Shown piece after piece: positions 29,491 through 59,498 of a stretch of DNA of 64,000 nucleotides. Numbering within the stretch: position 1 is the stretch's first letter; every line of letters starts with the position of its first letter. A program made the position numbers and the translations under genes. Below the pieces are notes generated by a model, which was not told the DNA's origin, made no database searches, and worked only from the letters and a program-made list of their open reading frames with translations. This stretch comes from a virus (Duplodnaviria; Caudoviricetes): the IMG/VR virus record IMGVR_UViG_2788500073_000001, positions 1 through 64,000 of that record, one strand, 5' to 3'.

Positions 29491-29650
29491 AAAAAAGGCA
29501 CGGTCGTGCCCAAAAGGGCGCAATCGTGCCGTTAGGTTTCACACCGGCCAGCTGTCAGCATGGACAGAAGGCCTTACTTTACTGCCTCGGTGGGCAGCGA
29601 ATACTTTCATGGAATACCTAGAGTGTACCCCCGTTTTTGTATCGTGTCAA
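29491..29650 (-). repeat. promoter-leader-terminator repeat, copy A
   Basis: TTGACA-17-TACACT, GTATTCCATG, hairpins P1 and P2, 15-bp terminator plus T6. Confidence 0.9.
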
Positions 29651-29682
29651 CACATCTTTGTTTTTTAATTCTTTTTAACACG

Positions 29683-31023
29683 TTATTTTCCCAATCTCTC
29701 CTCCAGAAGCATCCGGTCCTCCGCTGTTATGGAGTCTCCACCCATGGCAAATTCAATCAGGTCAGAGACGGAATTATTTAACCCAACCCCGTTATAGCTG
29801 CTCAGGTTGTCCACATCGGAAAACCGGCGGAACAGCGTTTTGTAGACCCTGACCCCCGTGAATGGATCGACAACGGAAGCCGTCATTTCAATAGCCGCGC
29901 TCTGGCTGCCTGTTTCTGTGCTGGTTAAGATGAAATAGCGAAGGCTGCACTCCAAAGAAGCCATACGTTCTTTCATCGCCTCCTCCATACCGGAATAATC
30001 ATCAAATTTTCGCTGATAGGAGGGATAGGTGGAGCTGATGGCGAAATGGCTGTCCAGATCGTCCCCGCCAAAGGAAAGTGTGGCCAGTGCGTCCATATCG
30101 CTCTTTTGAATGCCATCCACTGCCGTGTTCAGATATTCAACCAAGTCTTCATTGCCGAAAGCAGCTTCGGAAATCTCCCGTGCGTTGCCATAATCGTTTT
30201 TGAGCAGAAGGTCACCGCCGCGGGTGCCCTGGAACTCCACAGCGCCCCAGAAGAACGCATACTGGGGGATTTCATCGCCATAGGTATAGGATGTGGGATA
30301 ATACAGCATGGGCACATCATCTTCTATCAGGAACTCCAGCTTTACAAGATCTGTGCTTGCCGGAACACTGCCCATATCCATAGCAGAAATCGCCGCTGCC
30401 GCCCCTGTGGCTTTGAAAGAGGTCATCTCCTGATCGTATGCGGAATCTTCCCCTGCCGCAAGCTCAGGTGCTCTGGAGGCCATGTAGGGCGTTGTGACAG
30501 CGAGTGTAACGGTAACAAAATTGGACTGGCTGGGATCACCTCTGATTTCCAGTATCTCATAGGTCGTGGCACTCCCCATATTTCGGAACGCATCGCCGAT
30601 CGCCTCGTCCGCCAGACAGGTGTCCAGCATCAGCCGAAAGGGGTTATATTCCCCGCCGAAGGTGCGCGGTGAAACCTGCTGTTCGATGGTCTGCTCGTCA
30701 AGGGCCAACAACTTCGGAAGCATCTCCTCAATATTCCGGTCAACCTCTTCTTTTGTCAGCGTTGTGGGGGAGAGGTTGGAAAAATCCACTTCCGGGTAGG
30801 GCTGCTCATAATCCTGGTTGGTAGAATCAATATCCGGGATCTCCGATACCTGGGAAGACGATCCTTCCTGCTCACTGGAGAGGGAAGAAGAAGGCTCGCT
30901 TTCCGAACTGCCTGGCTCCTCCGTTGGCTCAGAGGACGGCTTTAAAAGCAGGAAGGCGCCGATTGCGACGACAGCTGCCGCTGCAATCAGCAGTGCCAGC
31001 GTTTTGGGTGATAGCTTTTTCAT
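29683..31023 (-). CDS. membrane-anchored or secreted acidic protein
   Basis: N-terminal TM/signal segment, Ser/Glu linker; adjacent to a signal peptidase. Confidence 0.7.
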   Translation of the reverse strand: MKKLSPKTLALLIAAAAVVAIGAFLLLKPSSEPTEEPGSSESEPSSSLSSEQEGSSSQVSEIPDIDSTNQDYEQPYPEVDFSNLSPTTLTKEEVDRNIEEMLPKLLALDEQTIEQQVSPRTFGGEYNPFRLMLDTCLADEAIGDAFRNMGSATTYEILEIRGDPSQSNFVTVTLAVTTPYMASRAPELAAGEDSAYDQEMTSFKATGAAAAISAMDMGSVPASTDLVKLEFLIEDDVPMLYYPTSYTYGDEIPQYAFFWGAVEFQGTRGGDLLLKNDYGNAREISEAAFGNEDLVEYLNTAVDGIQKSDMDALATLSFGGDDLDSHFAISSTYPSYQRKFDDYSGMEEAMKERMASLECSLRYFILTSTETGSQSAAIEMTASVVDPFTGVRVYKTLFRRFSDVDNLSSYNGVGLNNSVSDLIEFAMGGDSITAEDRMLLEERLGK

Positions 31024-31038
31024 TTGACAATCTCCTTT

Positions 31039-31542
31039 TTAGAAATGTGGAAGGGAAAATAGTTTTCTTTTTGCGACTGACCGGATTGCGGACGCTGGTA
31101 TGTAGGGGTTCTCCCAGTACCGGGCGTCATACGAGTGCTGACGGTTATCCCCCAGAAGCAGGTAGCAGCCTTCTGGAACTTGAAATATCTGCTCCTGGCC
31201 CTCCCTCTGGAATGACACATATTCCTCCCGAAGGGTTTTACCGTCAACAAAAATTGTCCCATCATCGGCAATTCGGACCTCTTCGCCGGGAAGGCCAATA
31301 ATCCTCTTGATCAGCATGGAGCCATCCTTTTCAAAGACGACAATATCTCCCCGTTCCAGTTCTGAAAAAACTCGGCTGCCCAAAAGGACATCGCCGCTGT
31401 TTAATGTGGGCGACATGCTTTCGCTGGGGACATACATCAGCATAAATACGCCTTGGAACAGAATGGTGGGAATCAACATAGCCAACGCCAGCAATACGAT
31501 AGCTTTGCCGAAAGAAACCGTGTGAACTGGATGCTGCGTCAT
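31039..31542 (-). CDS. lepB: signal peptidase I
   Basis: 'VPSESMSPTL', 'IKRIIGLPG', 'LGDNRQHSYDAR'. Confidence 0.92.
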   Translation of the reverse strand: MTQHPVHTVSFGKAIVLLALAMLIPTILFQGVFMLMYVPSESMSPTLNSGDVLLGSRVFSELERGDIVVFEKDGSMLIKRIIGLPGEEVRIADDGTIFVDGKTLREEYVSFQREGQEQIFQVPEGCYLLLGDNRQHSYDARYWENPYIPASAIRSVAKRKLFSLPHF

Positions 31543-31545
31543 ACC

Positions 31546-32046
31546 TTACTCCAGACCGGATTTAGGCGGCCGGTCCTCCACAAATTCGGTGGCGTCCCCT
31601 GCAGATTCCTCCCATTCTTCATCGCTGGGCAATTCGAAGTCCTCCGCGTGAAAGAAATCCGGCTGAGTCGTCATTTTCAAAGACTCATCCAGCTTGGGAT
31701 GCGCCGGATCGGAAGTACCGTTTGAGACATAATTGGAAGAATCTAAATAGCCCTCCAGCATCATGGGCATTTGGAGATGGAACCTGTACTCGGATTCCTC
31801 CGGCGCGTCTTCATTCCGGATATAGTCGTACTTGCCATCGTAAATCTCTTCATTGAAAACATCTTCCGCCATCCACTTGGCCACGTCCGCTTTGGCGACA
31901 ACGGCATTCAGCCCCACCGCCGATACCGTTACAGCAGCAGACGCCAACGCAATAGCGGAAAGGTTCCGGGGCGTGAAAAACTGGCCGTAATACCGCCTGG
32001 TGTGCTGAAGGCAGGCTCGAAGATTTGTGTGGATCCGCTTCATCAA
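31546..32046 (-). CDS. secreted hypothetical protein
   Basis: Hydrophobic segment with an A-X-A site; GGAGGAG RBS. Confidence 0.55.
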   Translation of the reverse strand: MMKRIHTNLRACLQHTRRYYGQFFTPRNLSAIALASAAVTVSAVGLNAVVAKADVAKWMAEDVFNEEIYDGKYDYIRNEDAPEESEYRFHLQMPMMLEGYLDSSNYVSNGTSDPAHPKLDESLKMTTQPDFFHAEDFELPSDEEWEESAGDATEFVEDRPPKSGLE

Positions 32047-32048
32047 AA

Positions 32049-32996: not shown

Positions 32997-33047
32997 ATAT
33001 CCGTCTACTATCATTATAGTAAAAAAAACAGAAAAAACGACCAAAAT

Positions 33048-33076: not shown

Positions 33077-33091
33077 CTGCTTTTGAACGGC

Positions 33092-36000: not shown

Positions 36001-38044
36001 GGATCAGCGGCGGCTGGGCCGCTTCCAGTGCTTTTACATTGGGCTCATAAGCCGGATCAGCGGCAGCAGTGGCTTTTGCTTCCTCCAGCTTTTGAAGGAC
36101 ATTGCCGCTCAGGTACTGGTCGCTGGTGAGCCATTCGTCCTCTTCGCTTTTGGCAGCGGGGTTCTTAAAGATCTGGCTGCCAGCCAGCTCCTGCAGCACG
36201 TCAGCTTCATCCATTTTGCACAGGCCGGCAATGTAGCGGATGTCTACCCATCCTTTGTGGTCCAGGCAGACAAAGAGAGATTCCTGCGGAGTATCACAGG
36301 AAGTGATGGCTTTCCGCATCTTGATGGTGCGTTTGGTGAAGATGTCGGCCTTGTGGACCACATCTTCCTCATCCGTGTATTCCAGAGAGGTGAGAAGAGA
36401 GGCTTCGGCATCCTCACGGAAGAGTCGGAGGTTTACCGGTTTGGTGAGAGGCCCGAATTCTTCTACAAACTGATCGTAGAAAAGATTGAGCTTTTCCTGC
36501 TCGGGCTCCAACTCTTCATCGGTACACTCCGCAATCTGCATCTGAATTACTTTCCGGGCCTGGTTGCGAATGGCGATCATACCCTTCACACGCTCCAGAG
36601 AACGGCCGGTGAATTTCTGCTTAATCATACGGCTGTCCACACGCTGGTACACCTCGCCGCCGATGAGAACCATCCCGAAGTTTTTGACGCCGGGAACAGC
36701 CGGAAGGCTTTGCCCATCTTCCGTTTCCTCATCCGTTTCTACCTCCTGATAGATCCCATCACATCCCCAGCCTTTTACGGCGGCATGGAACATCTTGACC
36801 TGGTTGCTTTCATCAACCGGTTCGACCGATTGAGGCGTTTTCATTTCAGGGACAAATTCGCCGATCATGCACTCGGGGTGTTCTTCATAATATGCAATGT
36901 GGCCGCGGGAAGGCTGAAACTGAGCGGTGTCCAGGGCGGATTTTTTTCGGGCTTTGGTAAACACCAGGATGTCGTAACAACACCCGTTGCCAAAAGCGTC
37001 ATAATCCATCCGCAGGCCGCCCACCAGCCGGACAGGGATTGCTGAAAGGATAAAGGGAACCTCCCTCCACAGCTGATCCACTGTTTTGCTGTCCATCATT
37101 ACCAGGAGAAGGCCGCCAGACCGTACTGCATTGACGGATCGCAGCATGGAAGCCGCGTAGTTGGGCAGTTCCAGGCCGCCGCCCTTCCTGCCGCGAAGGA
37201 TCTTAGTCCCTTTTGGATAGGAAGGGGCCATTGTGATCGCCAGGTCGTAATAACTGTCCTGGAGAAAGTCGTCCTCTGCCGTGATCTCGCTGGTGGGGAA
37301 TAACAGCGACTGAATGTCACCGCTCAGCCTGTCTGTGGCGTCAATCGTCACGCGGCTGGTCTTCACCAGCTTCTTGGGCAGCGAGCGGAGAATGGCGCCG
37401 TTTCCGGCGCCGTGGATCAGGATGTTCCCAGACTGGAAGCCTGCAGCCTTCAGGATACCGGAAACGGCGCGACGCACGATATGGCTGGGCGCATAAGGGT
37501 ACTGGGGGAGCGATTCAAACTCGTTAATTTCTTCGTCCGTGAAATGGGTTTCCAAGGTGTGCCGATGCTCCTGAACAGGGATCCCTTCCCAGCCGGAATA
37601 AGCGGCAAGGATCTCCTGGCTGGCAGTATCGGCATACTCATTTGCCAGGATAAGGCGTTTTGCCTCAAGGATCGCGTCAATATTCGCTTTGACCCGATCC
37701 GCTCCGTCCACAATCGGTTCCGGTTCGGCAGAAGGCGAAAACACCTTTGCTTTCCCTTTGCGGATGATAAGGTTTTGCACTGTCGGCAGATCCTGTTCCG
37801 CCTCCTTGTCCCACTCGATAAGCGGGGCTTTTTTCGGAGTGCTCTGAACGGTTTCCTCCGCTTCAGAATCATTTGCGAAGGAAGTGGGATCATCGTCTTC
37901 TTCTGCGAACATGGCTTCCCAATCCATTTGGTTCAGGTCATCCAGGGTGAGGATACCGGACTGACTACATTCATTGCCTGAAAGCAGACCGAATAAATCC
38001 TCGAAAGATACCTGCTTCATAGCAGGCGCTTGGTTTTTTGTCAT
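33092..38044 (-). CDS. DarB-like SNF2/SF2 helicase with an N-terminal methyltransferase-like domain
   Basis: 'HTVGSGKT', 'LFVDESH', 'ATGT', 'QRQGRIERPGN'; degenerate MTase fold at the N-terminus. Confidence 0.85.
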   Translation of the reverse strand: MTKNQAPAMKQVSFEDLFGLLSGNECSQSGILTLDDLNQMDWEAMFAEEDDDPTSFANDSEAEETVQSTPKKAPLIEWDKEAEQDLPTVQNLIIRKGKAKVFSPSAEPEPIVDGADRVKANIDAILEAKRLILANEYADTASQEILAAYSGWEGIPVQEHRHTLETHFTDEEINEFESLPQYPYAPSHIVRRAVSGILKAAGFQSGNILIHGAGNGAILRSLPKKLVKTSRVTIDATDRLSGDIQSLLFPTSEITAEDDFLQDSYYDLAITMAPSYPKGTKILRGRKGGGLELPNYAASMLRSVNAVRSGGLLLVMMDSKTVDQLWREVPFILSAIPVRLVGGLRMDYDAFGNGCCYDILVFTKARKKSALDTAQFQPSRGHIAYYEEHPECMIGEFVPEMKTPQSVEPVDESNQVKMFHAAVKGWGCDGIYQEVETDEETEDGQSLPAVPGVKNFGMVLIGGEVYQRVDSRMIKQKFTGRSLERVKGMIAIRNQARKVIQMQIAECTDEELEPEQEKLNLFYDQFVEEFGPLTKPVNLRLFREDAEASLLTSLEYTDEEDVVHKADIFTKRTIKMRKAITSCDTPQESLFVCLDHKGWVDIRYIAGLCKMDEADVLQELAGSQIFKNPAAKSEEDEWLTSDQYLSGNVLQKLEEAKATAAADPAYEPNVKALEAAQPPLIPAEDIDVTLGSPFLSPDYVSQFLFEKIGKKKTGRGPNSFLIQKKANGGYKIKTYCYIAATNPEFCSVYGTVEYNAIWLTQRLMNKYEVVATKEETDASGKIHKVRDHEKTVILLEKCRLIEDAFREWIFQDPTRETEIVSAYNQQYNNEVVPKYDGSHLTFPGMTAAIELKPHQKNAVYRIIRENGALIGHTVGSGKTITLLAAGMELKRLGRINKPLYLVPNNLLPQWGGEMMRLYPSANILLADPADMRKARRKRFLTRMALGDYDAIILGSSSFSLIPTPTDSVQKTIWHNAELMRRVRFSENSRVTTADLVTPRMREDQAQNFLANQSADYNLEELGIDYLFVDESHEFKNLYCPTGGNGLRGVSNTASAKCTDLYYKTKYLASLYGGKGGFTFATGTAIVNSITELYSLQRYFQEDLLIEKNIFGLDDWLALYGNITTDWELPPEGLNENGEGFRQVRRVSSFKNVPELMKMVLQFLDTVTKDQIQMNTPDVVIQTVSCPASIEQKAYMQELVERANLIRQGRTKKNKDNMLAVTVDGRKAALDIRTVRPRAPESKTNKVNQCADRIWEFYQKYQSLRATQVAFSDISTPNQAGFNVYDALKQKLVKLGIPEDEIAFAHDFKTAKQQTSMRIKMQSGRLRVLIGSTATIGQGVNIQNRLIALHNLDVPWTPKDIDQRQGRIERPGNMHTTVFVFNYVTEGSFDSYMWQLIELKAKLISQVLRGDYSHRTIEDSDTKVLTYSEIKAIATGDTRFLQRAKLEGEIARLETLKRGFDSQRSRLKQDVHINIPHTIQYLKELIPRLEQDASHLKSYYGDPVLECDGKSYHLNNKEEWSEAIKVLGPKVVKLEQGDILGKYNGMEIVAVRQDAVSSFFAAKDYTIALQGKATHRLDQDRIIFKGISVLKLCDEIVNGIPDSLKEKQDKLRSNELALKSAEALLSEPFEQQERLDQLKEEYAELTELLTA

Positions 38045-38135
38045 GACAATTCCTTCTTTCATTGGTTTTTGGCTTTTCTCTATGTAAAAAGGCCATCCCT
38101 TCTGACCAGGAAGGGACAGGCCTTGAATTGGCAAT

Positions 38136-38292
38136 AAAAAAGGCACGGTCGTGCCCAAAAGGGCGCAATCGTGCCGTTAGGTTTCACACCGGCCAAGCGT
38201 CAATGACGAAAGGCCTTACTTTACTGCTTCGGTGAGCAGCGGATACTTTCATGGAATACCTGAAGTATATGCCGCTTTTTGTATCGTGTCAA
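38136..38292 (-). repeat. promoter-leader-terminator repeat, copy B
   Basis: TTGACA-17-TATACT; P1 U-A variant; different inner P2 hairpin. Confidence 0.9.
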
Positions 38293-44472: not shown

Positions 44473-44561
44473 AAAATCTCCTTCTTTTCTTGGTTTTTGG
44501 TATGATCTATATGGAAAGGCCCCTTCCCTTGACCAAAGGGAAGATTCCTTGAATTGGCAAT

Positions 44562-44721
44562 AAAAAAGGCACGGTCGCGCCCAAAAGGGCGCAATCGTGC
44601 CGTTAGGTTTCACACCGGCCAGCTGTCAGTATGGACAGGAGGCCTTACTTTACTGCTTCGGTGAGCAGCGGATACTTTCATGGAATATCTGAAGTGTACC
44701 CCCGTTTTTGTATCGTGTCAA
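44562..44721 (-). repeat. promoter-leader-terminator repeat, copy C
   Basis: Near-identical to copies A and E. Confidence 0.9.
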
Positions 44722-46277: not shown

Positions 46278-46437
46278 AAAAAAGGCACGGTCGCGCCCAG
46301 AAGGGCGCAATCGTGCCGTTAGGTTTCACACCGGCCAGCTGTCAACAGGGACGGGAGGCCTTACTTTACTGCTTCGGTGAGCAGCGGATACTTTCATGGA
46401 ATACCTGAAGTGTACTCCCGTTTTTGTATCGTGTCAA
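46278..46437 (-). repeat. promoter-leader-terminator repeat, copy D
   Basis: Same layout; P2 inner hairpin CCGTC/GACAG. Confidence 0.9.
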
Positions 46438-46715: not shown

Positions 46716-47315
46716 GTGATACATTTGATTTTCCTTATGCTGCAGGCAATCGAAGACGAATCTGACCGCAACCGGCTGTCCGCCTTCTATTTGCAGTATT
46801 ATGGCCTGCTGAAAGCCAAAGCAGAATTTGTTTTGAAGCAATTCCATATTGGGGGTTCTTCCAATTTGGCTGAAGATATGGTTCAGGATGCGATGGCCAA
46901 AATGATCCAGAATATTGATACGATTTCAAAATTAAGCGATCCTCAGCTGGTAGCTTACGGTGTCAAAACGGTACAATCCTGCGCCACTGACTACTGCCGG
47001 AAAATGATTTCACAGCAAAAAGCCATTGAAGATAAAGGGATTTTAGAAGGAGCTGATGAGGATAAAGTATGGGAAGACTATACCGGTCTTTTTACCGAAG
47101 AAGATCCCATGCTTTTTCTTGGAGGGGTTCTGGCGGCCCTTCCCCAAAAAAGTCGTGATGTCCTCCTCTACAAACATTATTTTGACTATAGCGACAAAAA
47201 AATCGCGGAGCTTTTAGGGATACAAGAAAATTCAGTACGGATGGCACTGTCAAGAGCAAGAAAAAAGGTACGAAAAACTTGGGCTGCAATCAAAAAGGAA
47301 AAAGGAGAAGGATGA
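46716..47315 (+). CDS. ECF sigma-70 factor
   Basis: 'AEDMVQDA' region 2; 'SDKKIAELLGI..NSVRMALSRARKK' region 4. Confidence 0.9.
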   Translation: MIHLIFLMLQAIEDESDRNRLSAFYLQYYGLLKAKAEFVLKQFHIGGSSNLAEDMVQDAMAKMIQNIDTISKLSDPQLVAYGVKTVQSCATDYCRKMISQQKAIEDKGILEGADEDKVWEDYTGLFTEEDPMLFLGGVLAALPQKSRDVLLYKHYFDYSDKKIAELLGIQENSVRMALSRARKKVRKTWAAIKKEKGEG

Positions 47316-47318
47316 CAG

Positions 47319-48071
47319 ATGATTTATAATAATGAGCAGCAGCTTTTAAAGGTAGAAGACGAACTATTTAATTTGGCACTATTGGGACTTTTGGAGATTG
47401 AAGGGCGTAAACTGATCGAGGAAAAAGAGCAGATGGTCCAAAGGGGAGAATACGCTTCCCCGCCTGCGGATCAGCTGCGCCGCATTGAAAAAATGATCCG
47501 GCAGGGCGAAAGAAAAAAAGTGTTCCAATCATCTATTCGAAAAATTTCCCCTGTTATTTCAAAGGTCGCTGTGTGGTTTATGGTGTTTATCATGGGAACC
47601 GGCACCGTGGTCTTTGCCTCAGCTGATATACGCGAAGCGCTCTATCGGCTGATTGTTGAACAACACGAAAGATATTCGCAAATTGAACTGCAGCAGGGAG
47701 AAGAAAATAATGCTGAATATATCTCCAATGCCGCTTCTTATGTTCCGTCCTATGTGCCGGACCAAATGGAATTAGATCAGATTGAAAAATTGCGGTACAG
47801 TGTCAACGCATCCTATATTGGAAAGGACAATGAGGAACTGTACCTGACCTTCCGGCAGATCGATCCTACCGGCAGCGCGGAAATCCGCGTGGACACCGAG
47901 GATGCGAATCGGATTGAAAGCGTTGCGATAGGAAGCAGCGAAGGGCTCCTGGTTGAAAAAGACGGATCTATTCAGATCGTCTGGAACGCAGATGGGACTG
48001 TTTTGACGGTGATCTCCAATCTCAACGAGGAAGAGGTGCTCCGTTTTGCACAGGGGATTCAAACTCCATAG
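47319..48071 (+). CDS. anti-sigma factor (DUF4367-like)
   Basis: Single TM segment; 'PSYVP' and C-terminal 'W......ISNL.EEE....A..I'. Confidence 0.75.
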   Translation: MIYNNEQQLLKVEDELFNLALLGLLEIEGRKLIEEKEQMVQRGEYASPPADQLRRIEKMIRQGERKKVFQSSIRKISPVISKVAVWFMVFIMGTGTVVFASADIREALYRLIVEQHERYSQIELQQGEENNAEYISNAASYVPSYVPDQMELDQIEKLRYSVNASYIGKDNEELYLTFRQIDPTGSAEIRVDTEDANRIESVAIGSSEGLLVEKDGSIQIVWNADGTVLTVISNLNEEEVLRFAQGIQTP

Positions 48072-48189
48072 GGCCAGAATTACGAAAATGAGGGGATGGT
48101 GAAAACTTTTCCCTCATTTTTTATTTTATCGGTTGCATTTTGCCTTGTCTCCCGTCTTATTCTATGAGAGGACTAAAGGAGGCAATCAC

Positions 48190-48582
48190 ATGAAATCAAT
48201 GAAGCGCGCTCTCAGCCTGGGCCTTGCCCTGATGGTTATGACGGCAGCTACCAGCGTAGCCTACGCCAGATATGCCTACATCCGCCAATTTACCTTTGAC
48301 GGGGATATTGGTGCGACATCGGTGTACGGGGAGGCCTATGTGTCGCTGGATGGACAGGACTCATCCATGACCACCATCACCTTACAACGCTCCAGCGATG
48401 GAGGCCGTACCTATAAGACCGACCGGGTGCTGACTGCCAGGCATACGACCAGCAGCTCCTACTCTGCGGTGGGCGAGGCCGATAACCTCAACCCCGCCTA
48501 TGAGTACCGGCTGAAAGCTGAGGTCTTCGTCTATGACGAAGATAACAACGAAATCGACTACGACGTAGCATATATCGACTAA
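48190..48582 (+). CDS. small secreted protein (likely ECF target)
   Basis: Signal peptide ending 'AYA'; AGGAGG RBS; ECF-type promoter upstream. Confidence 0.7.
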   Translation: MKSMKRALSLGLALMVMTAATSVAYARYAYIRQFTFDGDIGATSVYGEAYVSLDGQDSSMTTITLQRSSDGGRTYKTDRVLTARHTTSSSYSAVGEADNLNPAYEYRLKAEVFVYDEDNNEIDYDVAYID

Positions 48583-48747
48583 ACCCAAGTGTTCCTCTCA
48601 CAATTTCATAAAAACTCAGGGTGTGCAGCGCAAAACGACGCTTGCCATACCCTGAGTTTTTTATCCACTGAAAGGGGGCGATCCCGATGATGTAACCTAT
48701 CTTCGCCGGAAAATCCACACGAAAAGCAACAATGGGAGGTTGAGAGA

Positions 48748-49449
48748 TTGATTGCTTTTTCCAGAACCGATATGGAACTGCTCGCTGACAGCATTATCAC
48801 TGATTATCGTGGGAGTGTGTTGACTCCATTCAGCCCGGTTGACGTTGACCGCTTGGCTTCTGAATATCTGGGCTTGGATGTTTCCTACATGGATTTTCCC
48901 CAGGATTCCGAAATCCTGGGCGTGACCGCCTATTCACAGTGCTGCCTGCACTTAAAAGGCCAGGATATTCAACTTAATTCCAATACTGTCCTCCTGGCCA
49001 AATCCCTGAAGCCCGGGGAACGGGGCGCCAATGAAGGCCGCCGGCGCTTTACTCTGGCTCACGAGTGCGCTCATCAGATCCTCTACCGGTATGAATCGGC
49101 TGTGGCACGGGAAGAAATCTGCCGGCCTTATTCCTGCCGGCGGGCGTTCTCTTTGCGGGAGCTGAAAACCCATGAAGATTGGAATGAGTGGCAGGCAGAT
49201 GCCCTTGGTGCCGCGCTGCTGATGCCGGAAGAGCTTGTGAGGCGCGTGGTATACCTTTTTACCCCTGATAATAAGCTGACGCGCTATGGGGACTGGTTCC
49301 CGCCGGAGGAGTACCGGCGTCTGGACAATATGAGCCGCTTCCTTGGCGTGTCGCACGCTGCTTTGCTGATCCGCCTCAAACAGCTGGGACTTCTGGAGCA
49401 GAAGAGATCCGGTGATTATCGAAATCCTTTGGATGTGGTGGCTGCATGA
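48748..49449 (+). CDS. ImmA/IrrE family metallopeptidase
   Basis: 'RRRFTLAHECAH' and 'EWQADALGAALLMP'. Confidence 0.9.
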   Translation: MIAFSRTDMELLADSIITDYRGSVLTPFSPVDVDRLASEYLGLDVSYMDFPQDSEILGVTAYSQCCLHLKGQDIQLNSNTVLLAKSLKPGERGANEGRRRFTLAHECAHQILYRYESAVAREEICRPYSCRRAFSLRELKTHEDWNEWQADALGAALLMPEELVRRVVYLFTPDNKLTRYGDWFPPEEYRRLDNMSRFLGVSHAALLIRLKQLGLLEQKRSGDYRNPLDVVAA

Positions 49450-49676
49450 AGAAAAGACAATTTGTACCGCCAACGCCTCAGATGTTGGCGAAGATCAGAA
49501 AAGCCGAGCTGGATGTGGTCGGGCATAATCAGAGAAACATTATGTGCCCGTACTGCCGGCGCCGCGCTATCATCGTATTTGACGATGCCAGCGGTCACAT
49601 CCAGACCCGCTGTAAGCACTGCGGGAAAGAGGTCATCATTGACCTGGTGAATATGAGAAGAACCCGACGGTTCTGA
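49446..49676 (+). CDS. small Zn-ribbon protein (Mu Com-like)
   Basis: 'IMCPYC...HIQTRCKHCGKE'; overlaps the immA stop codon. Confidence 0.7.
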   Translation: MKKRQFVPPTPQMLAKIRKAELDVVGHNQRNIMCPYCRRRAIIVFDDASGHIQTRCKHCGKEVIIDLVNMRRTRRF

Positions 49677-49891
49677 TCATATACCTGCCGGTTAGGCAGG
49701 CTGAGTACGAATATCCACACAAACGAAAATGACGCCGTGCACGGAGCCGCCGATGGCTGGACTTCCAAAGCCGCAACGAAAACCCTTTGCAAAAAGGGCT
49801 TTTCAACTGTGGCTTTGGATACGTCTGGGCCACCTGGCGGCTTTATTAGTTTTCCCTTCCCGGCTCCTCGCGGCCGGAAGGAGAAAACATC

Positions 49892-50326
49892 ATGGCACGA
49901 CACAAGAAAATCCGCGACAAGTATTTCATCAATCTGAACGGCCAGAAAATTGAGGTCACGAGGGAGGTCTATGAAGCCTGGTACGGCGGGGAGCGGAAGG
50001 AACGCTACCTGGAGGAGCGCGAGCGTGATTTCGGGGTTTATCCTGCCAGCAGTCTCACCGATGCCGACGGAGAACTCGATCCCCTGGACGCTGCCCAGTC
50101 CTCAGCAAATACGGAAGAAGAAGTGGAGCAGAAGGAAGAGTATGCGGAACTCTACAAAGCCCTTCATACTTTGCCGGAAAAGGAGCGCACAGTGCTCCAT
50201 CAGCTCTTTTTCCAGGGACTTACCATTGCGCGGATAGCCGAGCTGGAAGGCCTCGATGAGAGCAGCATCCGCTGGAGAAGGGACAGCGCCATCAAGAAGC
50301 TGAAAAAATATTTTGAGAAAATCTGA
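49892..50326 (+). CDS. sigma-70 region-4 protein (Tn916 Orf7-like)
   Basis: 'IEVTREVY', 'LPEKER..L...FFQGLT...IAE..G....SI..R...A.KKLK'. Confidence 0.85.
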   Translation: MARHKKIRDKYFINLNGQKIEVTREVYEAWYGGERKERYLEERERDFGVYPASSLTDADGELDPLDAAQSSANTEEEVEQKEEYAELYKALHTLPEKERTVLHQLFFQGLTIARIAELEGLDESSIRWRRDSAIKKLKKYFEKI

Positions 50327-51472: not shown

Positions 51473-51477
51473 AGCAG

Positions 51478-55242: not shown

Positions 55243-55264
55243 TTTGCTTGGCGTTCTGGAAACA

Positions 55265-56427: not shown

Positions 56428-56636
56428 ATTCTCACCCTCAATTCCTGCAGATCGTCCGTTCGGATTCCGACCAGATACCAGTCATCAGCCATCTCGATCC
56501 GAGTGGGCTTCCACTCGCCATCAATCAGGACATCAAAGCATTCCCCGCAGTGCAGGCCGCCGTAGTAGCAGCCAAGATCAAAGCGAATGTCGTACCGATC
56601 CGTTGCGAGGTCATAGATCAAAGTTCCCTGTTTCAT
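56424..56636 (-). CDS. DUF5348-like protein
   Basis: 'GLHCGECFDVLIDGEWKPTRIEM..DWYL'. Confidence 0.75.
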   Translation of the reverse strand: MKQGTLIYDLATDRYDIRFDLGCYYGGLHCGECFDVLIDGEWKPTRIEMADDWYLVGIRTDDLQELRVRI

Positions 56637-57256
56637 AATGAGCTCCTCCCGATTTGGTTGAACGGAATTATTTTTGCTACATGCTGTTCATTGGCCGGAC
56701 GGCTCGACTGATGAGGACTCACATCCTGAAATCCAGCCGGGGACACATGCACATTGGTCAGGATGAACTGGACGGGAATGATCTGGCCGTTCTGCAACAT
56801 CCGCACTTCATAAAACTTAAAACGCCCCGGCGCTTCTAATTTCACATCCGAATTGGTGATCACGCTCTGTACCAGATCCGGCGCCATACTGGCTTTCACG
56901 CCAAGGCTCTGCACTTCATCGGGACCGGCGACAAACGGATTGGCTGCCAGCGCCTCCACCCGTTTTTTCAATTCTTTCTTCGCGGCGCCGAGCGATGCAA
57001 AATATTGGATGTCAAATTCGCGAAGCCCGGTAGTATTGATGTGGCTGAGATCCGCTGTGCTCACTTTATAAATACGGTCATGAGACAGCTCCCAGATAAC
57101 CTTTCTGTGGAGCTTCACAAAATCCCGTTCTTCTTCTGAAAGGTCATCATGGTTCTCCATACCTTCTACAAAATCCTGAAGGTACTGGATCAGTTCATCT
57201 CTGCTCAGGTCACTGATTTCCAAATTTCGATCCTCCTTTGCATTTAATCTCTTCAC
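56633..57256 (-). CDS. hypothetical protein
   Basis: 207-aa ORF with GTG start inside a tandem repeat. Confidence 0.55.
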   Translation of the reverse strand: MKRLNAKEDRNLEISDLSRDELIQYLQDFVEGMENHDDLSEEERDFVKLHRKVIWELSHDRIYKVSTADLSHINTTGLREFDIQYFASLGAAKKELKKRVEALAANPFVAGPDEVQSLGVKASMAPDLVQSVITNSDVKLEAPGRFKFYEVRMLQNGQIIPVQFILTNVHVSPAGFQDVSPHQSSRPANEQHVAKIIPFNQIGRSSL

Positions 57257-57306
57257 TTAATACATTTAATCTCTTCACTTAATATATTTAATCTCTTCAC
57301 TTAATA
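57241..57306. repeat. 3 x 22-bp tandem repeat (CATTTAATCTCTTCACTTAATA)
   Basis: Units at 57241, 57263 and 57285; one mismatch in the third. Confidence 0.9.
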
Positions 57307-57320
57307 TATAGTAAAAAAAA

Positions 57321-57815
57321 TAAAAAAAACGACCAATTCGGCGCGCTCCCGAATTGGTCGTTTGGAGTGTCCACACCTGCTGTGCAGTCAGGTGCTTTCA
57401 CTGCCGTGATTTGGTTGCACACTCCAAATCACACATTGCATAAAAGGAATCCAACAATCCCGCTTTCAGGCTATAGAGCCCTGATCCCAGAGCGGGCAGG
57501 GATTTCGCATCAAACCCAGGCCGGTGCCTCTTCTCCCATGCGAACAGGAGGGGCCATGCGAACTTTATACGGTGTTACCCGTTCAGCCCCGGCATGGTGG
57601 GGGGTGTTGCTGCGTCTCCTGAACACAGCGCAAAGGATGTTCACGCTCTGTTCAGGAGACGAAAGGGAAAATACATTAACGAGACGGAGTTATGCGCTTT
57701 TTGGAAGCGACCCACATTCTCGCCGGTCCATTTGCGGTTTCCTGGAGTGTTCTCAACAGGAAGGGCCGCCATGCTCACCCATTTTACCGGGCAAGGAAAG
57801 TATTACATGGAATAC
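57321..57815 (-). ncRNA. candidate ~490-nt structured ncRNA
   Basis: Own TTGACA-17-TACAAT promoter (57822-57850), many hairpins, 15-bp terminator at 57327-57363 plus U run; no ORF-track entry on this strand. Confidence 0.6.
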
Positions 57816-57990
57816 ACTTAAATTGTAGACGCATTTTTGTATCGTGTCAACAACTTGCTAAGGTATTTCCCTCCTCATTTTCGCAAAAAGAAAAAAGCCA
57901 CCCGCAGGTGGCTTTTAAAGAGTGGTATACTAAATTTCCGAACCCAGAAAAGTGCTTTCTCCTCTCGGCGAAAGCACCTTTCCTGTTTAA

Positions 57991-58482
57991 TTACATGAAC
58001 TCGATTTGTCCGCCATCAAAGCGATAAAGCGGGATTTCATTTTCTTTTGCGAATTCGATCTCCTGCTGCATCCCTGCCGAGATCACCGGCCCACAGATTA
58101 CCAGGCCGGAGCAATGGCGTAGCACTTCAAAGTCAAACGCCATCGCAGCTTCCCGAGAGGCTGGATCGGAATCATCCAGCTCGTTGGGCAGCGAGGTGTG
58201 TGGAGCATAGGCATAGACCTGTTCTCCGGGGAAATCAGCAGCCATCAGCTTGCCGACCTCGGCTTCGTAGCGTTCTGCAGCAGCCATATTAGCCTGTACA
58301 GCTTCCGGTGTTGCCGCAGACAATGGAGAGGCAACATAAAACACCAGGCTTTGTGTTGGGTACTCTCTGATTTCAAGATACCGGTTGCACGCATGGCACC
58401 ACAAACCGACAAACGGCGTTGCGGCTGCTTCGGACCAAATCACCTCTAATGGATGCCCTTGATGAAAATGATGTTTTTTCAT
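57991..58482 (-). CDS. DUF4406 / nucleoside deoxyribosyltransferase-like protein
   Basis: 'YVASP', 'APH', 'C..LVICG..IS.GM..EI..A...IP'. Confidence 0.7.
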   Translation of the reverse strand: MKKHHFHQGHPLEVIWSEAAATPFVGLWCHACNRYLEIREYPTQSLVFYVASPLSAATPEAVQANMAAAERYEAEVGKLMAADFPGEQVYAYAPHTSLPNELDDSDPASREAAMAFDFEVLRHCSGLVICGPVISAGMQQEIEFAKENEIPLYRFDGGQIEFM

Positions 58483-58491
58483 AGCAATACC

Positions 58492-58953
58492 TCAGAAGGG
58501 CAGGTCATCTTCGTCCCCGTCGATTTCCTGGAAATCATCCAGGGACGGAGCTACATAGCGGGTCTGATCGTTCGAAGAAGTGCGGGGCGCAGCTGTAGCC
58601 GCCGGAGCAGATTCGCTTCCGGTTGTCCTGTCCCTCTTGCTGCCACAGAACTCGAACTTCTGGACCTCAAATTCCACCATGGTGATGGGATACTGCTGGC
58701 CTTCGATCTCTTTTTTATAGGAAGTGTACTGCGCTTCGATCAGCAGCTCGCTTCCTTTCTGCGTGTTATTGGCCAGACGTTCAGCGACACTCTGCCAGGC
58801 AACAAAAGAAGGGTATTCGGTGATCGTCCCCTTTTTTGAGCCGGCATAGCGATCGCAGGCAAGCTGGAACCGGCAGACGGAAATGCCGCTGTTGGTTTTC
58901 TTCAGTTCAATATCCTTTGTGAGACGGCCGTGAAAAATGTTCTTCATAAACAT
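58492..58953 (-). CDS. ssb: single-stranded DNA-binding protein
   Basis: 'GRLTKDIELK.T..G..V..F.LA', 'KGS'; C-terminal 'DDLPF'. Confidence 0.92.
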   Translation of the reverse strand: MFMKNIFHGRLTKDIELKKTNSGISVCRFQLACDRYAGSKKGTITEYPSFVAWQSVAERLANNTQKGSELLIEAQYTSYKKEIEGQQYPITMVEFEVQKFEFCGSKRDRTTGSESAPAATAAPRTSSNDQTRYVAPSLDDFQEIDGDEDDLPF

Positions 58954-58972
58954 AGTTTTTTCCTCCTGTACT

Positions 58973-59248
58973 TTAATAAATCTCGCCGCAATCCAAGGCT
59001 CCATCCGGGTCATCCGGAGGAAGGCGGTAGACGCTTTTTCCCTCGGAAATGGTGCGGATCATTTCTTCCATGACAACCTGAGCCTGCTTTTCAGAACGGT
59101 ATGTAGCAATCGTGCGATTATGGCTGCCGACACCATAATAGAAGATTTTGATCTCGGTTTCCCCCATGACCGTGCCAGGTGCAGCGTCCACCTTAAAGAT
59201 GGAATCAAAATTGACGATGGTTTTTTTGTTTTGTGATACAATAATCAT
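58973..59248 (-). CDS. hypothetical protein
   Basis: AGGAGG RBS; 'IVSQNKK.IVNF', 'ATY.SE..A..V..E'; first gene behind repeat E. Confidence 0.6.
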   Translation of the reverse strand: MIIVSQNKKTIVNFDSIFKVDAAPGTVMGETEIKIFYYGVGSHNRTIATYRSEKQAQVVMEEMIRTISEGKSVYRLPPDDPDGALDCGEIY

Positions 59249-59337
59249 TTTGTATCCTCCTTTTGTTTTTGGTTAAGGTTTCATCGACATCTATAGGAAA
59301 AGAACCTACTTGGTATAGAAGGTCCTTGAATTTTCAC

Positions 59338-59498
59338 AAAAAAAGGCACGGTCACGCCCAAAAGGGCGCAATCGTGCCGTTAGGTTTCACACCGGCCAGC
59401 TGTCAGCATGGACAGGAGGCCTTACTTTACTGCTTCGGTGAGCAGCAGATACTTTCATGGAATATCTGAAGTGTACCCCCGTTTTTGTATCGTGTCAA
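59338..59498 (-). repeat. promoter-leader-terminator repeat, copy E
   Basis: Near-identical to copies A and C. Confidence 0.9.

What the first reader, a model, noticed from the sequence alone, without database searches (positions are those of the whole stretch)
29491..59498. Five dispersed promoter + pseudoknot-like leader + terminator cassettes controlling the element's operons (candidate new attenuator/riboswitch family)
Seen: ~160-bp copies at 29491-29650, 38136-38292, 44562-44721, 46278-46437 and 59338-59498, all on the minus strand and each heading an operon (annealing protein/primase/clamp; DarB-like helicase; AAA/vWA/Rpn; OB-fold protein; SSB). The layout is TTGACA-17-TA(C/T)ACT, then GTATTCCATGAAAGTAT, then P1 GCUGC(C/U)-CACCGA-(G/A)GCAGU, then AAAGUAA, then P2 GGCC[inner hairpin]GGCC, then GGUGUGAAACCUAAC, then a 15-bp terminator with a U6+ tail. 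Copies covary: P1 has C-G in copy A and U-A in the others, and the P2 inner hairpin is CUGUC/GACAG versus CGUC/GACG. The invariant P1 loop CACCG is complementary to CGGUG at the 3' end of P2, which suggests a pseudoknot. Inference: a strong promoter whose transcript terminates by default unless a ligand, protein or RNA switches it, giving coordinated establishment-type expression. Known analogies are the CUP repeats of IncN plasmids and the repeated upstream sequences of pLS20 establishment operons. From memory the CACCG loop, AAA linker and GGUnUGA loosely resemble the guanidine-IV riboswitch, but the topology differs.
Basis: partly seen in the sequence, partly recalled or inferred. Interest (0 to 1): 0.9.

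Follow-up and report, generated by a model that had tools for sequence, protein, structure and literature searches.

The report
Repeated promoter-leader-terminator cassettes on conjugative element
A conjugative element of gut Clostridia places the same ~250-base control unit (strong promoter, small folded RNA, then one or two transcription stop signals) before eight to ten of its operons; it looks like an undescribed read-through switch, not a metabolite-sensing riboswitch.

Summary
The five copies are real. The 80.3-kb record holds 8 full copies plus one promoter-only copy.

Related, divergent cassettes occur 10 times in an Anaerotruncus colihominis conjugative element, twice in Angelakisella massiliensis, and in 23 gut-metagenome loci. 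This gives 44 distinct copies in three clades.

Hairpins P1 and P2 and terminator T1 are supported by compensatory changes. Wobble pairs show that the sense strand folds (141 G·U against 10 A·C cells). No Rfam family matches.

- The proposed pseudoknot is confined to the window's own near-identical clade.
- No antiterminator or closing stem competes with T1.
- The leader ORF is not conserved.
- The cassette is longer than described. A conserved linker and a second, freely covarying terminator-like hairpin (T2) follow T1.
- T1 has a 14-15-bp stem and an unusually conserved sequence.

Best reading: factor-dependent read-through control of an ICE regulon, combined with operator-like promoter DNA. 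The mechanism is unproven.

This scan has noted analogous, sequence-unrelated cassettes on other mobile elements. Sequence look-alikes were found only in this genome.

The parts
29622..29650 (-). Copy A promoter: -35 TTGACA (29645-29650), 17-bp spacer, -10 TACACT (29622-29627)
29531..29598 (-). Copy A leader RNA module: P1 hairpin (arms 29593-29598 and 29581-29586), linker AAAGUAA, P2 hairpin (29546-29573), linker GGUGUGAAACCUAAC (29531-29545)
29491..29530 (-). Copy A terminator T1 (14-15-bp stem) plus U6 tail
29440..29484 (-). Copy A T2 module: AATTCAAGG linker, second hairpin (-16.5 kcal/mol, then U4), CATAGA box. The start codon of the 414-aa gene is at 29392-29394
38264..38292 (-). Copy B promoter (-10 TATACT)
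38176..38240 (-). Copy B leader RNA module (P1, linker, shorter P2 inner hairpin CGUC/GACG, linker)
38136..38175 (-). Copy B T1 plus U6
38079..38129 (-). Copy B T2 module (-18.4 kcal/mol hairpin, U5). The start codon of the SNF2-family giant gene is at 38042-38044
44693..44721 (-). Copy C promoter
44602..44669 (-). Copy C leader RNA module
44562..44601 (-). Copy C T1 plus U6
44506..44555 (-). Copy C T2 module (-14.0 kcal/mol hairpin, U3). The start codon of the AAA_5 gene is at 44470-44472
46409..46437 (-). Copy D promoter
46318..46385 (-). Copy D leader RNA module
46278..46317 (-). Copy D T1 plus U6. This copy has no T2 module; the start codon is at 46225-46227
59470..59498 (-). Copy E promoter
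59379..59446 (-). Copy E leader RNA module
59338..59378 (-). Copy E T1 plus U7
59290..59332 (-). Copy E T2 module, divergent (weak hairpin of -6.4 kcal/mol, U4, no GGUC loop). The start codon of the 91-aa ORF that precedes SSB is at 59246-59248
57803..57850 (-). Ninth, promoter-only copy. It shares TTGACACGATACAAAAA, has -10 TACAAT and GTATTCCATG just after +1, then diverges with no P1/P2/T1

Best explanation
Each cassette is a cis-acting control unit of about 250 nt that heads an operon of a tRNA-integrated integrative conjugative element (ICE) of gut Oscillospiraceae.

Parts of a unit, in order:
- A consensus housekeeping-sigma promoter. Its -35-proximal spacer and first ~15 transcribed bases are conserved as DNA, which suggests a protein operator.
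- A leader RNA of about 95 nt with two covarying hairpins (P1, P2) joined by conserved single-stranded linkers.
- Directly afterwards, a very stable, sequence-conserved terminator with a long stem (T1).
- In most copies, a second terminator-like hairpin (T2) whose stem sequence drifts freely, then the RBS.

Shown:
- The parts exist.
- Their stems covary, and the fold is on the sense strand.
- Nothing in the RNA competes with T1.
- No terminator other than T1/T2 was seen in the 33 nt between the upstream gene's stop and copy A's -35 box; the other junctions were not measured.

Inferred:
- By default, transcripts from each promoter stop at T1, giving an RNA of about 125 nt.
- The operons are expressed only when a trans-acting factor allows read-through. 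This factor would be element- or host-encoded and is not yet identified.
- The factor would act either by binding the conserved linker and 5' arm of T1 as they emerge, or by modifying RNA polymerase on the P1-P2 leader.
- A repressor on the conserved promoter DNA probably adds a second lock. Together these would give coordinated on/off control of 8-10 operons.
For: Structure:
- 44 distinct copies in 3 clades.
- P1 is paired in 98.9% of cells, with 5 of 6 pairs changed on both sides. T1 is paired in 95.4%, with 9 of 14. The P2 outer stem is paired in 86.4%, with 3 of 4.
- 0 of 500 shuffles reach any of the five measures. Slid controls give 36-43% paired.
- G·U against A·C cells in the helices: 141 against 10.

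No RNA-internal switch:
- Clade-wise alifold finds only P1, P2 and T1, also after the 3' arm of T1 is removed.
- The 5' arm of T1 pairs with upstream RNA no better than shuffled arms do (median z +0.7 to +0.9). T1 is -23 to -27 kcal/mol.

Second hairpin:
- T2 is present as a hairpin of -8 kcal/mol or stronger followed by at least 3 U in 17 of 21 own-clade, 8 of 10 Anaerotruncus-clade and 3 of 13 Angelakisella-clade copies.

Position and linkage:
- Promoter-before-terminator order with the RBS 51-97 nt after T1 in the five window copies (8 own copies and their start codons). The 10 Anaerotruncus copies lie directly upstream of ORFs.
- For 6 of the 8 own cassettes the first gene's orthologue is also cassette-headed in the Anaerotruncus element, at 33-65% protein identity. 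For a seventh, copy E, it is the second gene, SSB, at 66%.

Promoter module:
- The spacer next to the -35 box is conserved within each element: CGATACA in the own and Angelakisella clades, CTGGAAAAAAT in the Anaerotruncus clade.
Against: - No antiterminator-type protein family (NusG/LoaP, Q, ANTAR, CAT_RBD) appeared among the 73 ORFs of the own element scanned with Pfam. The ICEs carry no NusG paralogue.
- Terminators with 14-15-bp stems resist the only tested processive system of Gram-positive conjugative plasmids (PMC10325885, passages read). T1 has such a stem.
- T2 is a weak or doubtful terminator in the Angelakisella clade, and 8 of 44 copies lack the T2 module.
- No transcript ends are available. 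The only RNA-library evidence is one depth-2.5 contig that runs through T1 and T2.
- Copies within an element may be homogenised by recombination, so conservation within one element is weak evidence.
Confidence: 0.45

Rival explanations
1. There is no RNA switch. The promoters are controlled only at the DNA level by an element-encoded repressor, giving zygotic induction as with Reg576 or ArdK. T1/T2 are fixed attenuators and insulators that damp a very strong promoter and stop read-in from the upstream operon. P1/P2 only stabilise or shape the transcript.
For: - The -35-proximal spacer and the first transcribed bases are conserved, also in the promoter-only ninth copy.
- The element encodes a SpoVT/AbrB-type DNA-binding protein with a GAF domain inside a cassette-headed operon. 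It also carries an ImmA-like protease, Zn-ribbon and sigma region-4 module conserved in all three elements.
- Reg576 and CUP/ArdK are precedents (PMC6294495 abstract and outline; PMC6289460 passages).
- T1/T2 are the only terminators seen between consecutive operons.
Against: - It does not explain why the P1 and P2 stems are maintained by compensatory change while the linkers and the T1 sequence are conserved across clades.
- Placing the promoter upstream of, rather than downstream of, two terminators is costly if read-through is never regulated.
- P1 starts about 20 nt from the predicted 5' end, so it is not a classic 5' stabiliser.
Confidence: 0.2
2. The unit from the promoter to T1 is a self-contained small-RNA gene present in 8-10 copies. 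The ~125-nt RNA acts in trans, for example as a decoy, regulator or anti-defence RNA. Downstream operons are expressed by leak or from other promoters.
For: - It has its own consensus promoter and a strong, sequence-conserved terminator with a long stem. A terminator whose sequence is conserved behaves like part of a functional RNA.
- Multi-copy dosage.
- The element makes other promoter-driven non-coding stretches.
Against: - All 8 own copies and all 10 Anaerotruncus copies sit directly before an ORF, and none stands alone.
- The conserved sequence continues past T1 to the RBS.
- Orthologous genes keep their cassette across elements.
- When the same promoter drives a non-coding stretch, the RNA module is absent.
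- No consistent promoter was found between T1 and the genes. The class II-like spacing holds in 12 of 21 own-clade copies, is 11-12 nt in 7 of 10 Anaerotruncus-clade copies, and the motif is absent in 12 of 13 Angelakisella-clade copies.
Confidence: 0.15
3. The P1-P2 leader is an autonomous cis-acting processive antiterminator RNA (put/EAR/conAn2/canT-like) that makes polymerase terminator-resistant without a dedicated protein.
For: - A structured RNA lies between the promoter and two tandem terminators of unrelated sequence.
- Such RNAs are documented on Gram-positive conjugative elements (PMC8191782, PMC11658703, passages read).
- No protein factor was found.
Against: - If it were autonomous, T1/T2 would always be bypassed, including by polymerase reading in from upstream, so their conservation would be pointless.
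- The known elements are 260-600 nt and single-copy (PMC8191782, PMC11658703), against about 95 nt in 8-10 copies here.
- Long-stem terminators resist conAn (PMC10325885).
- No Rfam match, including EAR.
Confidence: 0.1
4. It is a ligand-sensing riboswitch or attenuator. P1, P2 and the conserved linkers form an aptamer that controls T1.
For: The conservation pattern is aptamer-like: covarying stems and conserved junction nucleotides directly abutting the terminator.
Against: - No mutually exclusive structure.
- The pseudoknot is not conserved.
- A second hairpin downstream could not be reached by an aptamer.
- No Rfam riboswitch match.
- The controlled genes are replication, recombination, helicase and toxin-antitoxin genes of an ICE, not a coherent metabolic or transport set.
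Confidence: 0.07
5. The hairpins act in single-stranded DNA after transfer, as an ssDNA promoter or priming site (Frpo, EGeRS1-like).
For: - The setting is an ICE, with several inverted repeats upstream of establishment-type operons, as in EGeRS1 (PMC8708921).
- The transfer genes lie just upstream.
Against: - G·U against A·C asymmetry (141 against 10) places the fold on the sense strand. From memory, in F-type leading regions the transferred strand is the template strand.
- A complete double-stranded consensus promoter is present, and its -35 and -10 boxes lie upstream of all four hairpins, not within any of them.
- Cassette GC (0.49-0.53) equals the element's GC (0.50), unlike EGeRS1 (PMC8708921).
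Confidence: 0.05
6. It is leader-peptide (translation-coupled) attenuation. A ribosome on a short leader ORF that ends 11 nt before T1 masks the 5' arm of T1.
For: A 22-23-codon ORF (AUG at unit position 41, UGA 11 nt before T1) is present in 21 of 21 own-clade copies, and the 3-nt indel in P2 keeps the frame.
Against: - Own-clade copies are near-identical.
- In the Anaerotruncus clade, start, frame, length (8-33 codons) and stop position (-53 to +14) are inconsistent, and 1 of 10 copies has no ORF.
- In the Angelakisella clade most starts are UUG, stops range from -41 to -5 with one outlier at +92, and 4 of 13 copies have no ORF.
- There is no Shine-Dalgarno sequence.
- Substitutions follow base-pairing, not codons.
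Confidence: 0.03

Closest known systems
EGeRS1 / EGeRS2 'establishment gene regulatory sequences' of pLS20-family plasmids (PMC8708921; Reg576 in PMC6294495)
   Same: A conserved sequence is repeated upstream of several (4-5) operons in one region of a Gram-positive conjugative element, each just before an RBS. EGeRS2 has a sigma-A promoter plus short inverted repeats. EGeRS1 has many inverted repeats.
   Different: - EGeRS1 is 420-750 bp, GC-enriched, and lacks a strong sigma-A promoter.
- EGeRS2 is about 140 bp, with a dual TTATCCC operator for an RHH repressor and no promoter-proximal terminator.
- Here the unit is about 250 nt, with a consensus promoter, two covarying hairpins, a long-stem terminator and a second hairpin.
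- No sequence match in the plasmid collection.
CUP repeats and ArdK of IncN plasmids (PMC6289460 passages; Delver & Belogurov 1997 seen only as a reference entry)
   Same: Conserved upstream repeats carry promoters for leading-region operons and are bound by a plasmid repressor.
   Different: They are Gram-negative and act at the DNA operator level only. No structured leader or terminator is described in the passages read.
Lambdoid PR'-qut-tR' with Q (recalled; summarised in PMC8191782 and PMC11658703)
   Same: A strong promoter is followed at once by a terminator, giving a short RNA by default. [quoted passage not shown]
   Different: - Q needs no RNA structure, whereas here two hairpins covary.
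- No Q-family protein was found.
- There is no clear -10-like pause element of the TAnnnT type in the first transcribed bases.
- There are 8-10 copies instead of one.
cis-acting RNA antiterminators: HK022 put, EAR, conAn2 (PMC8191782), canT of Tn916 (PMC11658703)
   Same: A folded RNA lies between a promoter and terminators on a mobile element. put (recalled) also consists of two hairpins.
   Different: - conAn2 is 260-600 bp and canT about 350-450 nt. Both are single-copy at the head of one long operon, with terminators far downstream.
- Here the RNA is about 95 nt, multi-copy, and its own long-stem terminator follows within 0-3 nt.
- No Rfam match to EAR.
Zipper-type attenuator cATT of pLS20 (PMC13401043, abstract and outline read)
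   Same: A leader on a conjugative element with a weak hairpin, then a long hairpin, then an intrinsic terminator.
   Different: The zipper requires the flank upstream of the long hairpin to be complementary to the terminator. That complementarity is absent here.

Membership tests
Riboswitch with terminator expression platform (including guanidine-IV) | Match to a curated riboswitch covariance model | tested here: not met
   Rfam 15 at gathering threshold on the whole window gives only a tRNA. At E<=10 over 29000-60000, none of 18 weak hits overlaps a cassette. At E<=1 on six loci with divergent copies, the 2 hits lie elsewhere.
Riboswitch with terminator expression platform (including guanidine-IV) | Mutually exclusive terminator/antiterminator pairing | tested here: not met
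   Clade-wise alifold with and without the 3' arm of T1. Duplex scan of upstream RNA against the 5' arm of T1 gives median z +0.7 to +0.9.
Riboswitch with terminator expression platform (including guanidine-IV) | Conserved aptamer core: covarying stems with conserved junction or loop nucleotides, including the proposed pseudoknot | tested here: inconclusive
   Stems covary and the two linkers are conserved. The pseudoknot is confined to one clade: 20 of 21, 0 of 10 and 1 of 13 copies.
Riboswitch with terminator expression platform (including guanidine-IV) | Ligand binding | not testable with these tools
   Needs in-line probing or in vitro termination assays.
Processive antitermination system (N/nut, Q/qut, put, EAR, conAn, canT, LoaP) | A recognition element between the promoter and more than one terminator | tested here: met
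   The P1-P2 leader is followed by T1 and, in most copies, T2.
Processive antitermination system (N/nut, Q/qut, put, EAR, conAn, canT, LoaP) | A dedicated factor gene (Q, N, NusG paralogue, ConAn1) on the element | tested here: not met
   No such Pfam family among the 73 own-element ORFs scanned. NusG occurs only at host loci. Small unannotated proteins and the missing part of the record remain open.
Processive antitermination system (N/nut, Q/qut, put, EAR, conAn, canT, LoaP) | boxA-like Nus-factor site | tested here: inconclusive
   The host rrn boxA is CACCUUGAAAAUUGAACAAC in both the leader and the spacer. By my hand alignment, the linker after P2 matches about 9 of 16 positions.
Processive antitermination system (N/nut, Q/qut, put, EAR, conAn, canT, LoaP) | Read-through of heterologous terminators in cis | not testable with these tools
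   Needs reporter assays. The 14-15-bp stem of T1 is of the class reported to resist conAn (PMC10325885).
Repeated establishment-operon regulatory sequences (CUP, EGeRS) | The same upstream sequence before several operons of a conjugative element | tested here: met
   8 copies in the own record and 10 in the Anaerotruncus ICE, whose transfer genes (T4CP, VirB4-like, M23 hydrolase) lie adjacent.
Repeated establishment-operon regulatory sequences (CUP, EGeRS) | Sequence homology to CUP, EGeRS1 or EGeRS2 | tested here: not met
   No blastn 'distant' match in 72,556 plasmid records. I did not verify that the reference plasmids are in that collection.
Repeated establishment-operon regulatory sequences (CUP, EGeRS) | A cognate repressor binding an operator in the repeat | tested here: inconclusive
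   Operator-like conserved spacer and first transcribed bases. Candidate DNA-binding proteins exist. Binding was not tested.
Intrinsic (factor-independent) terminator | A G+C-rich hairpin followed by a U-tract | tested here: met
   T1 has a 14-15 bp stem, -23 to -27 kcal/mol and U6-7 in all 44 copies. T2 meets the criterion in 28 of 44 copies.

The most novel reading that the evidence does not exclude
The cassettes are a new class of compact, multi-copy RNA-dependent antitermination switch. An as yet unknown factor would recognise the conserved linker and T1 5'-arm RNA, or load onto polymerase via the P1-P2 leader. It would override an otherwise antitermination-proof long-stem terminator at 8-10 promoters at once, firing the whole DNA-processing and establishment regulon of a gut-Clostridia ICE. 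The candidates are the element's sigma-like proteins, its SpoVT-like regulator, an S1-domain protein or a host factor. The ~125-nt terminated RNA may itself have a second role in trans.
Probability: 0.3. Interest if true: 0.8.

Novelty: new variant of a known kind. Interest (0 to 1): 0.6.

Why it matters
Conjugative elements of gut Firmicutes spread resistance and fitness genes, yet how they time their non-transfer genes (SSB, primase, helicases, recombination and anti-defence candidates) is almost unknown outside the Bacillus plasmids pLS20 and p576.

This is a compact, well-delimited and comparatively validated RNA/DNA control unit that governs 8-10 operons at once. It occurs in a sequenced isolate-derived genome, Anaerotruncus colihominis JM4-15 (record title). 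That makes regulon-wide control after initiation directly testable.

It also adds a covariation-supported RNA motif that no Rfam family covers. It poses a sharp question: how is a long-stem terminator, of the kind shown to resist the known plasmid antitermination system, ever read through?

Similar but unrelated cassettes noted by this scan on other mobile elements suggest a general design principle.

Tried and rejected
1. The 15-mer scan of viral contigs gave 31 loci that match only over 14-21 nt, so they are chance matches. The gapped motif scan gave one chance hit inside AT-rich coding sequence.

2. Protein-anchored scans of viral contigs found no relative.

3. blastn 'distant' against the plasmid and phage collections found no match.

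4. A covariance-model search of 151 genomes of the family found only G001 itself (stricter filters, 19 candidates scored per genome). An order-wide protein search of 401 genomes gave two further genomes with domain-level hits only. Neither of them has a cassette.

5. Pseudoknot. My first count used a register shifted by one column (helix 2), so I discard that helix.

6. Closing stem. The single-sequence MFE fold suggested a three-way junction. It is not recovered in any clade-wise consensus.

7. boxA. The host rrn boxA resembles the linker only weakly.

8. T2 as a 'class II' promoter. Copies B, G and H resemble TGGTCGT-N15-TACTAT, but the spacing is not conserved in the other clades.

9. Leader peptide: not conserved.

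10. Repressor/operator co-variation could not be done, because no HTH repressor sits beside the ImmA-like gene.

11. My first automatic T2 criterion was faulty and was replaced.

12. RNA data. Four runs, kept only as contigs, cover small scattered parts of 27500-31500. One 223-nt contig at depth 2.5 in the one true metatranscriptome lies on 29467-29605 and continues 84 nt into a B-type T2. Contigs show no ends and DNA carry-over is possible, so I count this as no evidence for or against termination.

13. A weak model hit at L073:9316-9474(-) (26.3 bits) was not examined.

14. Complex prediction, structure prediction, the protein atlas and the search of protein representatives were not used.

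15. Supplements of the papers (alignments of conAn2, canT and EGeRS) were not opened, so no direct sequence comparison with those elements was made.

16. Novelty searches in print are. None lists a description of this cassette. Subscription journals are not covered.

Full report
**Observation**

The -35 TTGACA, the 17-bp spacer, the -10 TA(C/T)ACT, both hairpins, both linkers and the terminator are as described.

- A 25-mer from the 3' half occurs exactly five times, against 0.00 expected in 100 shuffles.
- The 17-mer after the promoter occurs five times at up to 3 mismatches, against 0.08 expected.
- The window is the first 64 kb of an 80,312-nt record classed as a provirus. A search of the whole record gives eight full-length copies (89-100% identical to copy C, all on the minus strand; the extra ones are at 64739, 67739 and 78020) and one partial copy at 57803-57850.

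**The cassette is longer than reported**

Reading 140 nt past each terminator shows more structure in seven of the eight copies. The conserved terminator (T1) is followed by the linker ATTGCCAATTCAAGG, then a second hairpin whose stem differs between copies while staying paired, then a short U-run and an (A/C/T)ATAGA box. About 25-40 nt further on come an RBS and a start codon.

For copy A, only 33 nt separate the upstream gene's stop from the -35 box. I saw no terminator between consecutive operons other than T1 and T2; the other junctions were not measured.

**What the element is**

- Window 1-12 kb carries tailed-phage structural genes: baseplate J, sheath, capsid, portal and terminase. Host genes follow (phosphoglycerate kinase at 14056-15354), then a tRNA at 18290-18363.
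- A second element begins there with a 588-aa tyrosine integrase (18553-20319) and an HTH_17 excisionase-like gene. It runs to the end of the record.
- It carries an actin-like partition protein, a primase, SSB, UvrD-, RecD2- and SNF2-family helicases, a YqaJ-type exonuclease, an AAA_5/vWA pair, and PIN and HicB toxin-antitoxin parts.
- It also carries three sigma-like proteins, an ImmA/IrrE-type protease, and a SpoVT/AbrB-type DNA-binding protein with a GAF domain.
- It is syntenic with a stretch of Anaerotruncus colihominis contig C34 at 33-76% protein identity. There, the region just upstream in transcription order encodes a type IV coupling protein, a VirB4-like ATPase, an M23 hydrolase, a sortase and adhesins.
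- So the cassette-bearing element is an integrative conjugative element. The 'provirus' label most likely reflects the neighbouring phage-like module.

**Relatives**

Direct DNA searches of the viral, plasmid and phage collections gave nothing real.

The protein behind copy A (414 aa) has homologues. An alignment of them found two genomes, A. colihominis and Angelakisella massiliensis. In both, the homologous gene is preceded by a recognisably related but divergent cassette that is repeated elsewhere in the locus.

- A covariance model built from 12 copies finds 10 copies in the Anaerotruncus genome, all on one strand within 53 kb, and 2 in Angelakisella.
- It finds no further genome among the 151 searched in the family.
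- A degenerate pattern taken from columns conserved in all three species found 23 human-gut metagenome loci.
- The model then collected 65 matches. 45 are distinct sequences of 140 nt or more. After I dropped one opposite-strand terminator echo, 44 remain: 21 own-type, 10 Anaerotruncus-type and 13 Angelakisella-type. The other 20 matches were duplicates or contig-end fragments.

**Structure**

On the model-fitted alignment:

| Helix | Cells paired | Pairs changed on both sides |
|---|---|---|
| P1 | 98.9% | 5 of 6 |
| P2 outer stem | 86.4% | 3 of 4 |
| T1 | 95.4% | 9 of 14 |

- None of 500 column shuffles reaches the observed value on any of the five measures. Sliding the partners by 1-3 columns drops pairing to 36-43%.
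- The alignment was fitted to this structure, which favours it. However, an independent MAFFT alignment with RNAalifold, run clade by clade, recovers the same three helices.
- G·U cells outnumber A·C cells 141 to 10 in these helices. So the fold is selected on the sense strand, as in RNA.
- Across clades the P1 and P2 sequences and loops vary freely.
- Several parts are conserved across clades: the promoter boxes, about 15 nt after +1, the linker nnA(A/U)GU(A/G)A before P2, the linker GG(U/A)nUn..AAC..UAA after P2, and, unusually, much of T1 (GGCAYRAYUGCGYC...).

**What the comparative data reject**

1. The pseudoknot.
   - In the correct register it is 74.5% paired, almost all from the near-identical own clade.
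   - It covaries no better than shuffles: 167 of 500 shuffles reach the covariation score and 477 of 500 the count of double changes.
   - Per copy, loop/linker complementarity of 4 nt or more occurs in 20 of 21 own-clade, 0 of 10 Anaerotruncus-clade and 1 of 13 Angelakisella-clade copies. Own-clade variants CUCCGA and CAUCGA are not compensated.
2. A closing stem suggested by the single-sequence fold. It is absent from every clade consensus.
3. An antiterminator.
   - With the 3' arm of T1 removed, nothing conserved pairs with its 5' arm.
   - A duplex scan gives energies no better than shuffled arms (median z +0.7 to +0.9), at inconsistent sites.
   - T1 itself is -23 to -27 kcal/mol. The same result excludes the zipper-type layout of pLS20 (PMC13401043, abstract).
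4. A leader peptide. The 22-23-codon ORF ending 11 nt before T1 is present in 21 of 21 own-clade copies. Start, frame, length and stop are inconsistent elsewhere, and 1 of 10 and 4 of 13 copies have no such ORF.
5. Any Rfam family, guanidine-IV and EAR included.
6. A boxA. The host's own rrn boxA matches the linker only weakly.

**T2**

A hairpin of -8 kcal/mol or stronger followed by at least three U is present after T1 in 17 of 21 own-clade, 8 of 10 Anaerotruncus-clade and 3 of 13 Angelakisella-clade copies. One of those three, L068, is not the homologous hairpin.

In the Angelakisella clade a conserved hairpin exists in 10 of 13 copies, but its U-run is folded into the stem. By my reading, eight of the 44 copies lack the module.

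T2 of copies B, G and H resembles a second promoter class of the element: TGGTCGT, a T-rich N15 and TACTATAT, found at five minus-strand sites. The loop-to-box spacing is 15 nt in only 12 of 21 own-clade copies and 11-12 nt in 7 of 10 Anaerotruncus-clade copies. The motif is absent in 12 of 13 Angelakisella-clade copies. I therefore do not read T2 as a promoter.

**Mechanism**

Shown:
- A consensus promoter is followed, after a conserved folded leader, by a very strong terminator and usually a second one.
- No RNA-internal alternative to termination exists.
- All 18 copies in the two elements for which I called ORFs lie directly before an ORF.
- The cassette-gene link is kept between the two elements for six of the eight first genes, and for a seventh through its second gene, SSB.

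Inferred:
- Transcription stops at T1 by default, and the operons need read-through.
- Read-through is therefore brought about by something outside the leader's own folding.
- The conserved single-stranded linker and 5' arm of T1 form a continuous conserved stretch of about 30 nt. It is the obvious target for an RNA-binding factor. Alternatively, the P1-P2 leader could load a factor onto polymerase.
- The conserved -35-proximal spacer differs between elements (CGATACA against CTGGAAAAAAT). Together with the first transcribed bases, it looks like a protein operator. That would add repressor control of the kind shown for Reg576 (PMC6294495) and ArdK/CUP (PMC6289460).

Against a simple processive model:
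- Terminators with 14-15-bp stems were shown to resist conAn, whereas typical stems are 7-9 bp (PMC10325885, passages read). T1 has such a stem.
- No NusG paralogue, Q, ANTAR or CAT-type protein was found among the 73 own-element ORFs scanned, nor on the two other elements for NusG.
- The record lacks the transfer half of the element, and many small proteins have no family.

I put the factor-dependent read-through switch at 0.45. The rivals, in order, are:
- a fixed attenuator with repressor-only control;
- a trans-acting small RNA gene;
- an autonomous put-like RNA;
- a riboswitch;
- an ssDNA function;
- a leader peptide.

**Comparison with what is known**

The concept closest in print is the 'establishment gene regulatory sequence' of the pLS20 family (PMC8708921). 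Its two described types differ in size, content and (known or suspected) mechanism.

The architecture resembles lambda PR'-tR'. In its use of a folded RNA before terminators, it resembles put, EAR, conAn2 (PMC8191782) and canT of Tn916 (PMC11658703). Those elements are single-copy, and conAn2 and canT are three to six times larger. It fails tested membership features of each family (see the membership table). Searches of the paper library found no description of this cassette.

This scan has flagged architecturally similar but sequence-unrelated cassettes on other mobile elements. Those notes are unchecked leads. By sequence, look-alikes were noted only in this same genome.

**Verdict**

This is a real cis-element family supported by covariation. 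It is new to Rfam and, as far as my searches reach, to print. It controls 8-10 operons of gut-Clostridia ICEs.

The mechanism remains open but sharply posed. I rate it a new variant of a known kind (promoter-proximal termination control / repeated establishment regulatory sequences), with interest 0.6.

Noticed in passing
window 57803-57850 (-) and downstream to about 57320: A ninth copy of the cassette promoter (TTGACACGATACAAAAA, -10 TACAAT, GTATTCCATG) lacks P1/P2/T1. It leads into a stretch with no listed minus-strand ORF of 60 aa or more between 57257 and 57850, ahead of a class II promoter at 57308-57334.
   Followed up: partly
window 25530-25556, 33016-33042, 57308-57334, 60345-60371 (-); record 73115-73141 (-): A second promoter-like class, TGGTCGT with a T-rich 15-nt spacer and TACTATAT, occurs at five sites inside or between operons, often just after a U-run. 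It may be the regulon of one of the element's sigma-like proteins. Related GGTCGC...(C)CTATAT sites occur in the Anaerotruncus element.
   Followed up: partly
window about 57250-57307 (-): Directly after the class II promoter at 57308 there are three tandem ~20-nt repeats (attaagtgaagagattaaat-like), seen in the output.
   Followed up: no
window 46716-50326 (+): An opposite-strand regulatory module: ECF-type sigma (46716-47315), DUF4367 anti-sigma-like protein (47319-48071), ImmA/IrrE M78 protease (48748-49449), Com-like Zn-ribbon protein (49446-49676) and a sigma region-4 protein (49892-50326). The protease, Zn-ribbon and sigma-r4 trio is conserved in all three elements, with no HTH repressor beside it.
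   Followed up: partly
record 70128-70673 (-) = L001:6128-6673: A SpoVT/AbrB-type DNA-binding protein with a GAF domain lies inside the operon behind cassette H and is conserved in the Anaerotruncus element (42% identity). It is a candidate binder of the conserved promoter DNA.
   Followed up: no
window 1-12169 (-): A separate compact tailed-phage-like structural module (baseplate J, sheath, capsid, portal, large terminase) abuts host genes (PGK at 14056-15354). It probably explains the record's 'provirus' class and is unrelated to the cassettes.
   Followed up: partly
L075:6456-7814 (-) (Anaerotruncus ICE): A 452-aa protein with an S1 RNA-binding/OB domain sits next to the type IV coupling protein gene. 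It is a possible nucleic-acid-binding factor of the element.
   Followed up: no
window 29467-29605 (run X3): In the one true metatranscriptome, a 223-nt contig at depth 2.5 starts about 10 nt after the predicted +1 of a cassette and runs through T1 into a copy-B-type T2. Contig evidence only.
   Followed up: partly
L073:9316-9474 (-): A weak covariance-model hit (26.3 bits, E 0.007) in the Anaerotruncus element may be a degenerate eleventh cassette.
   Followed up: no
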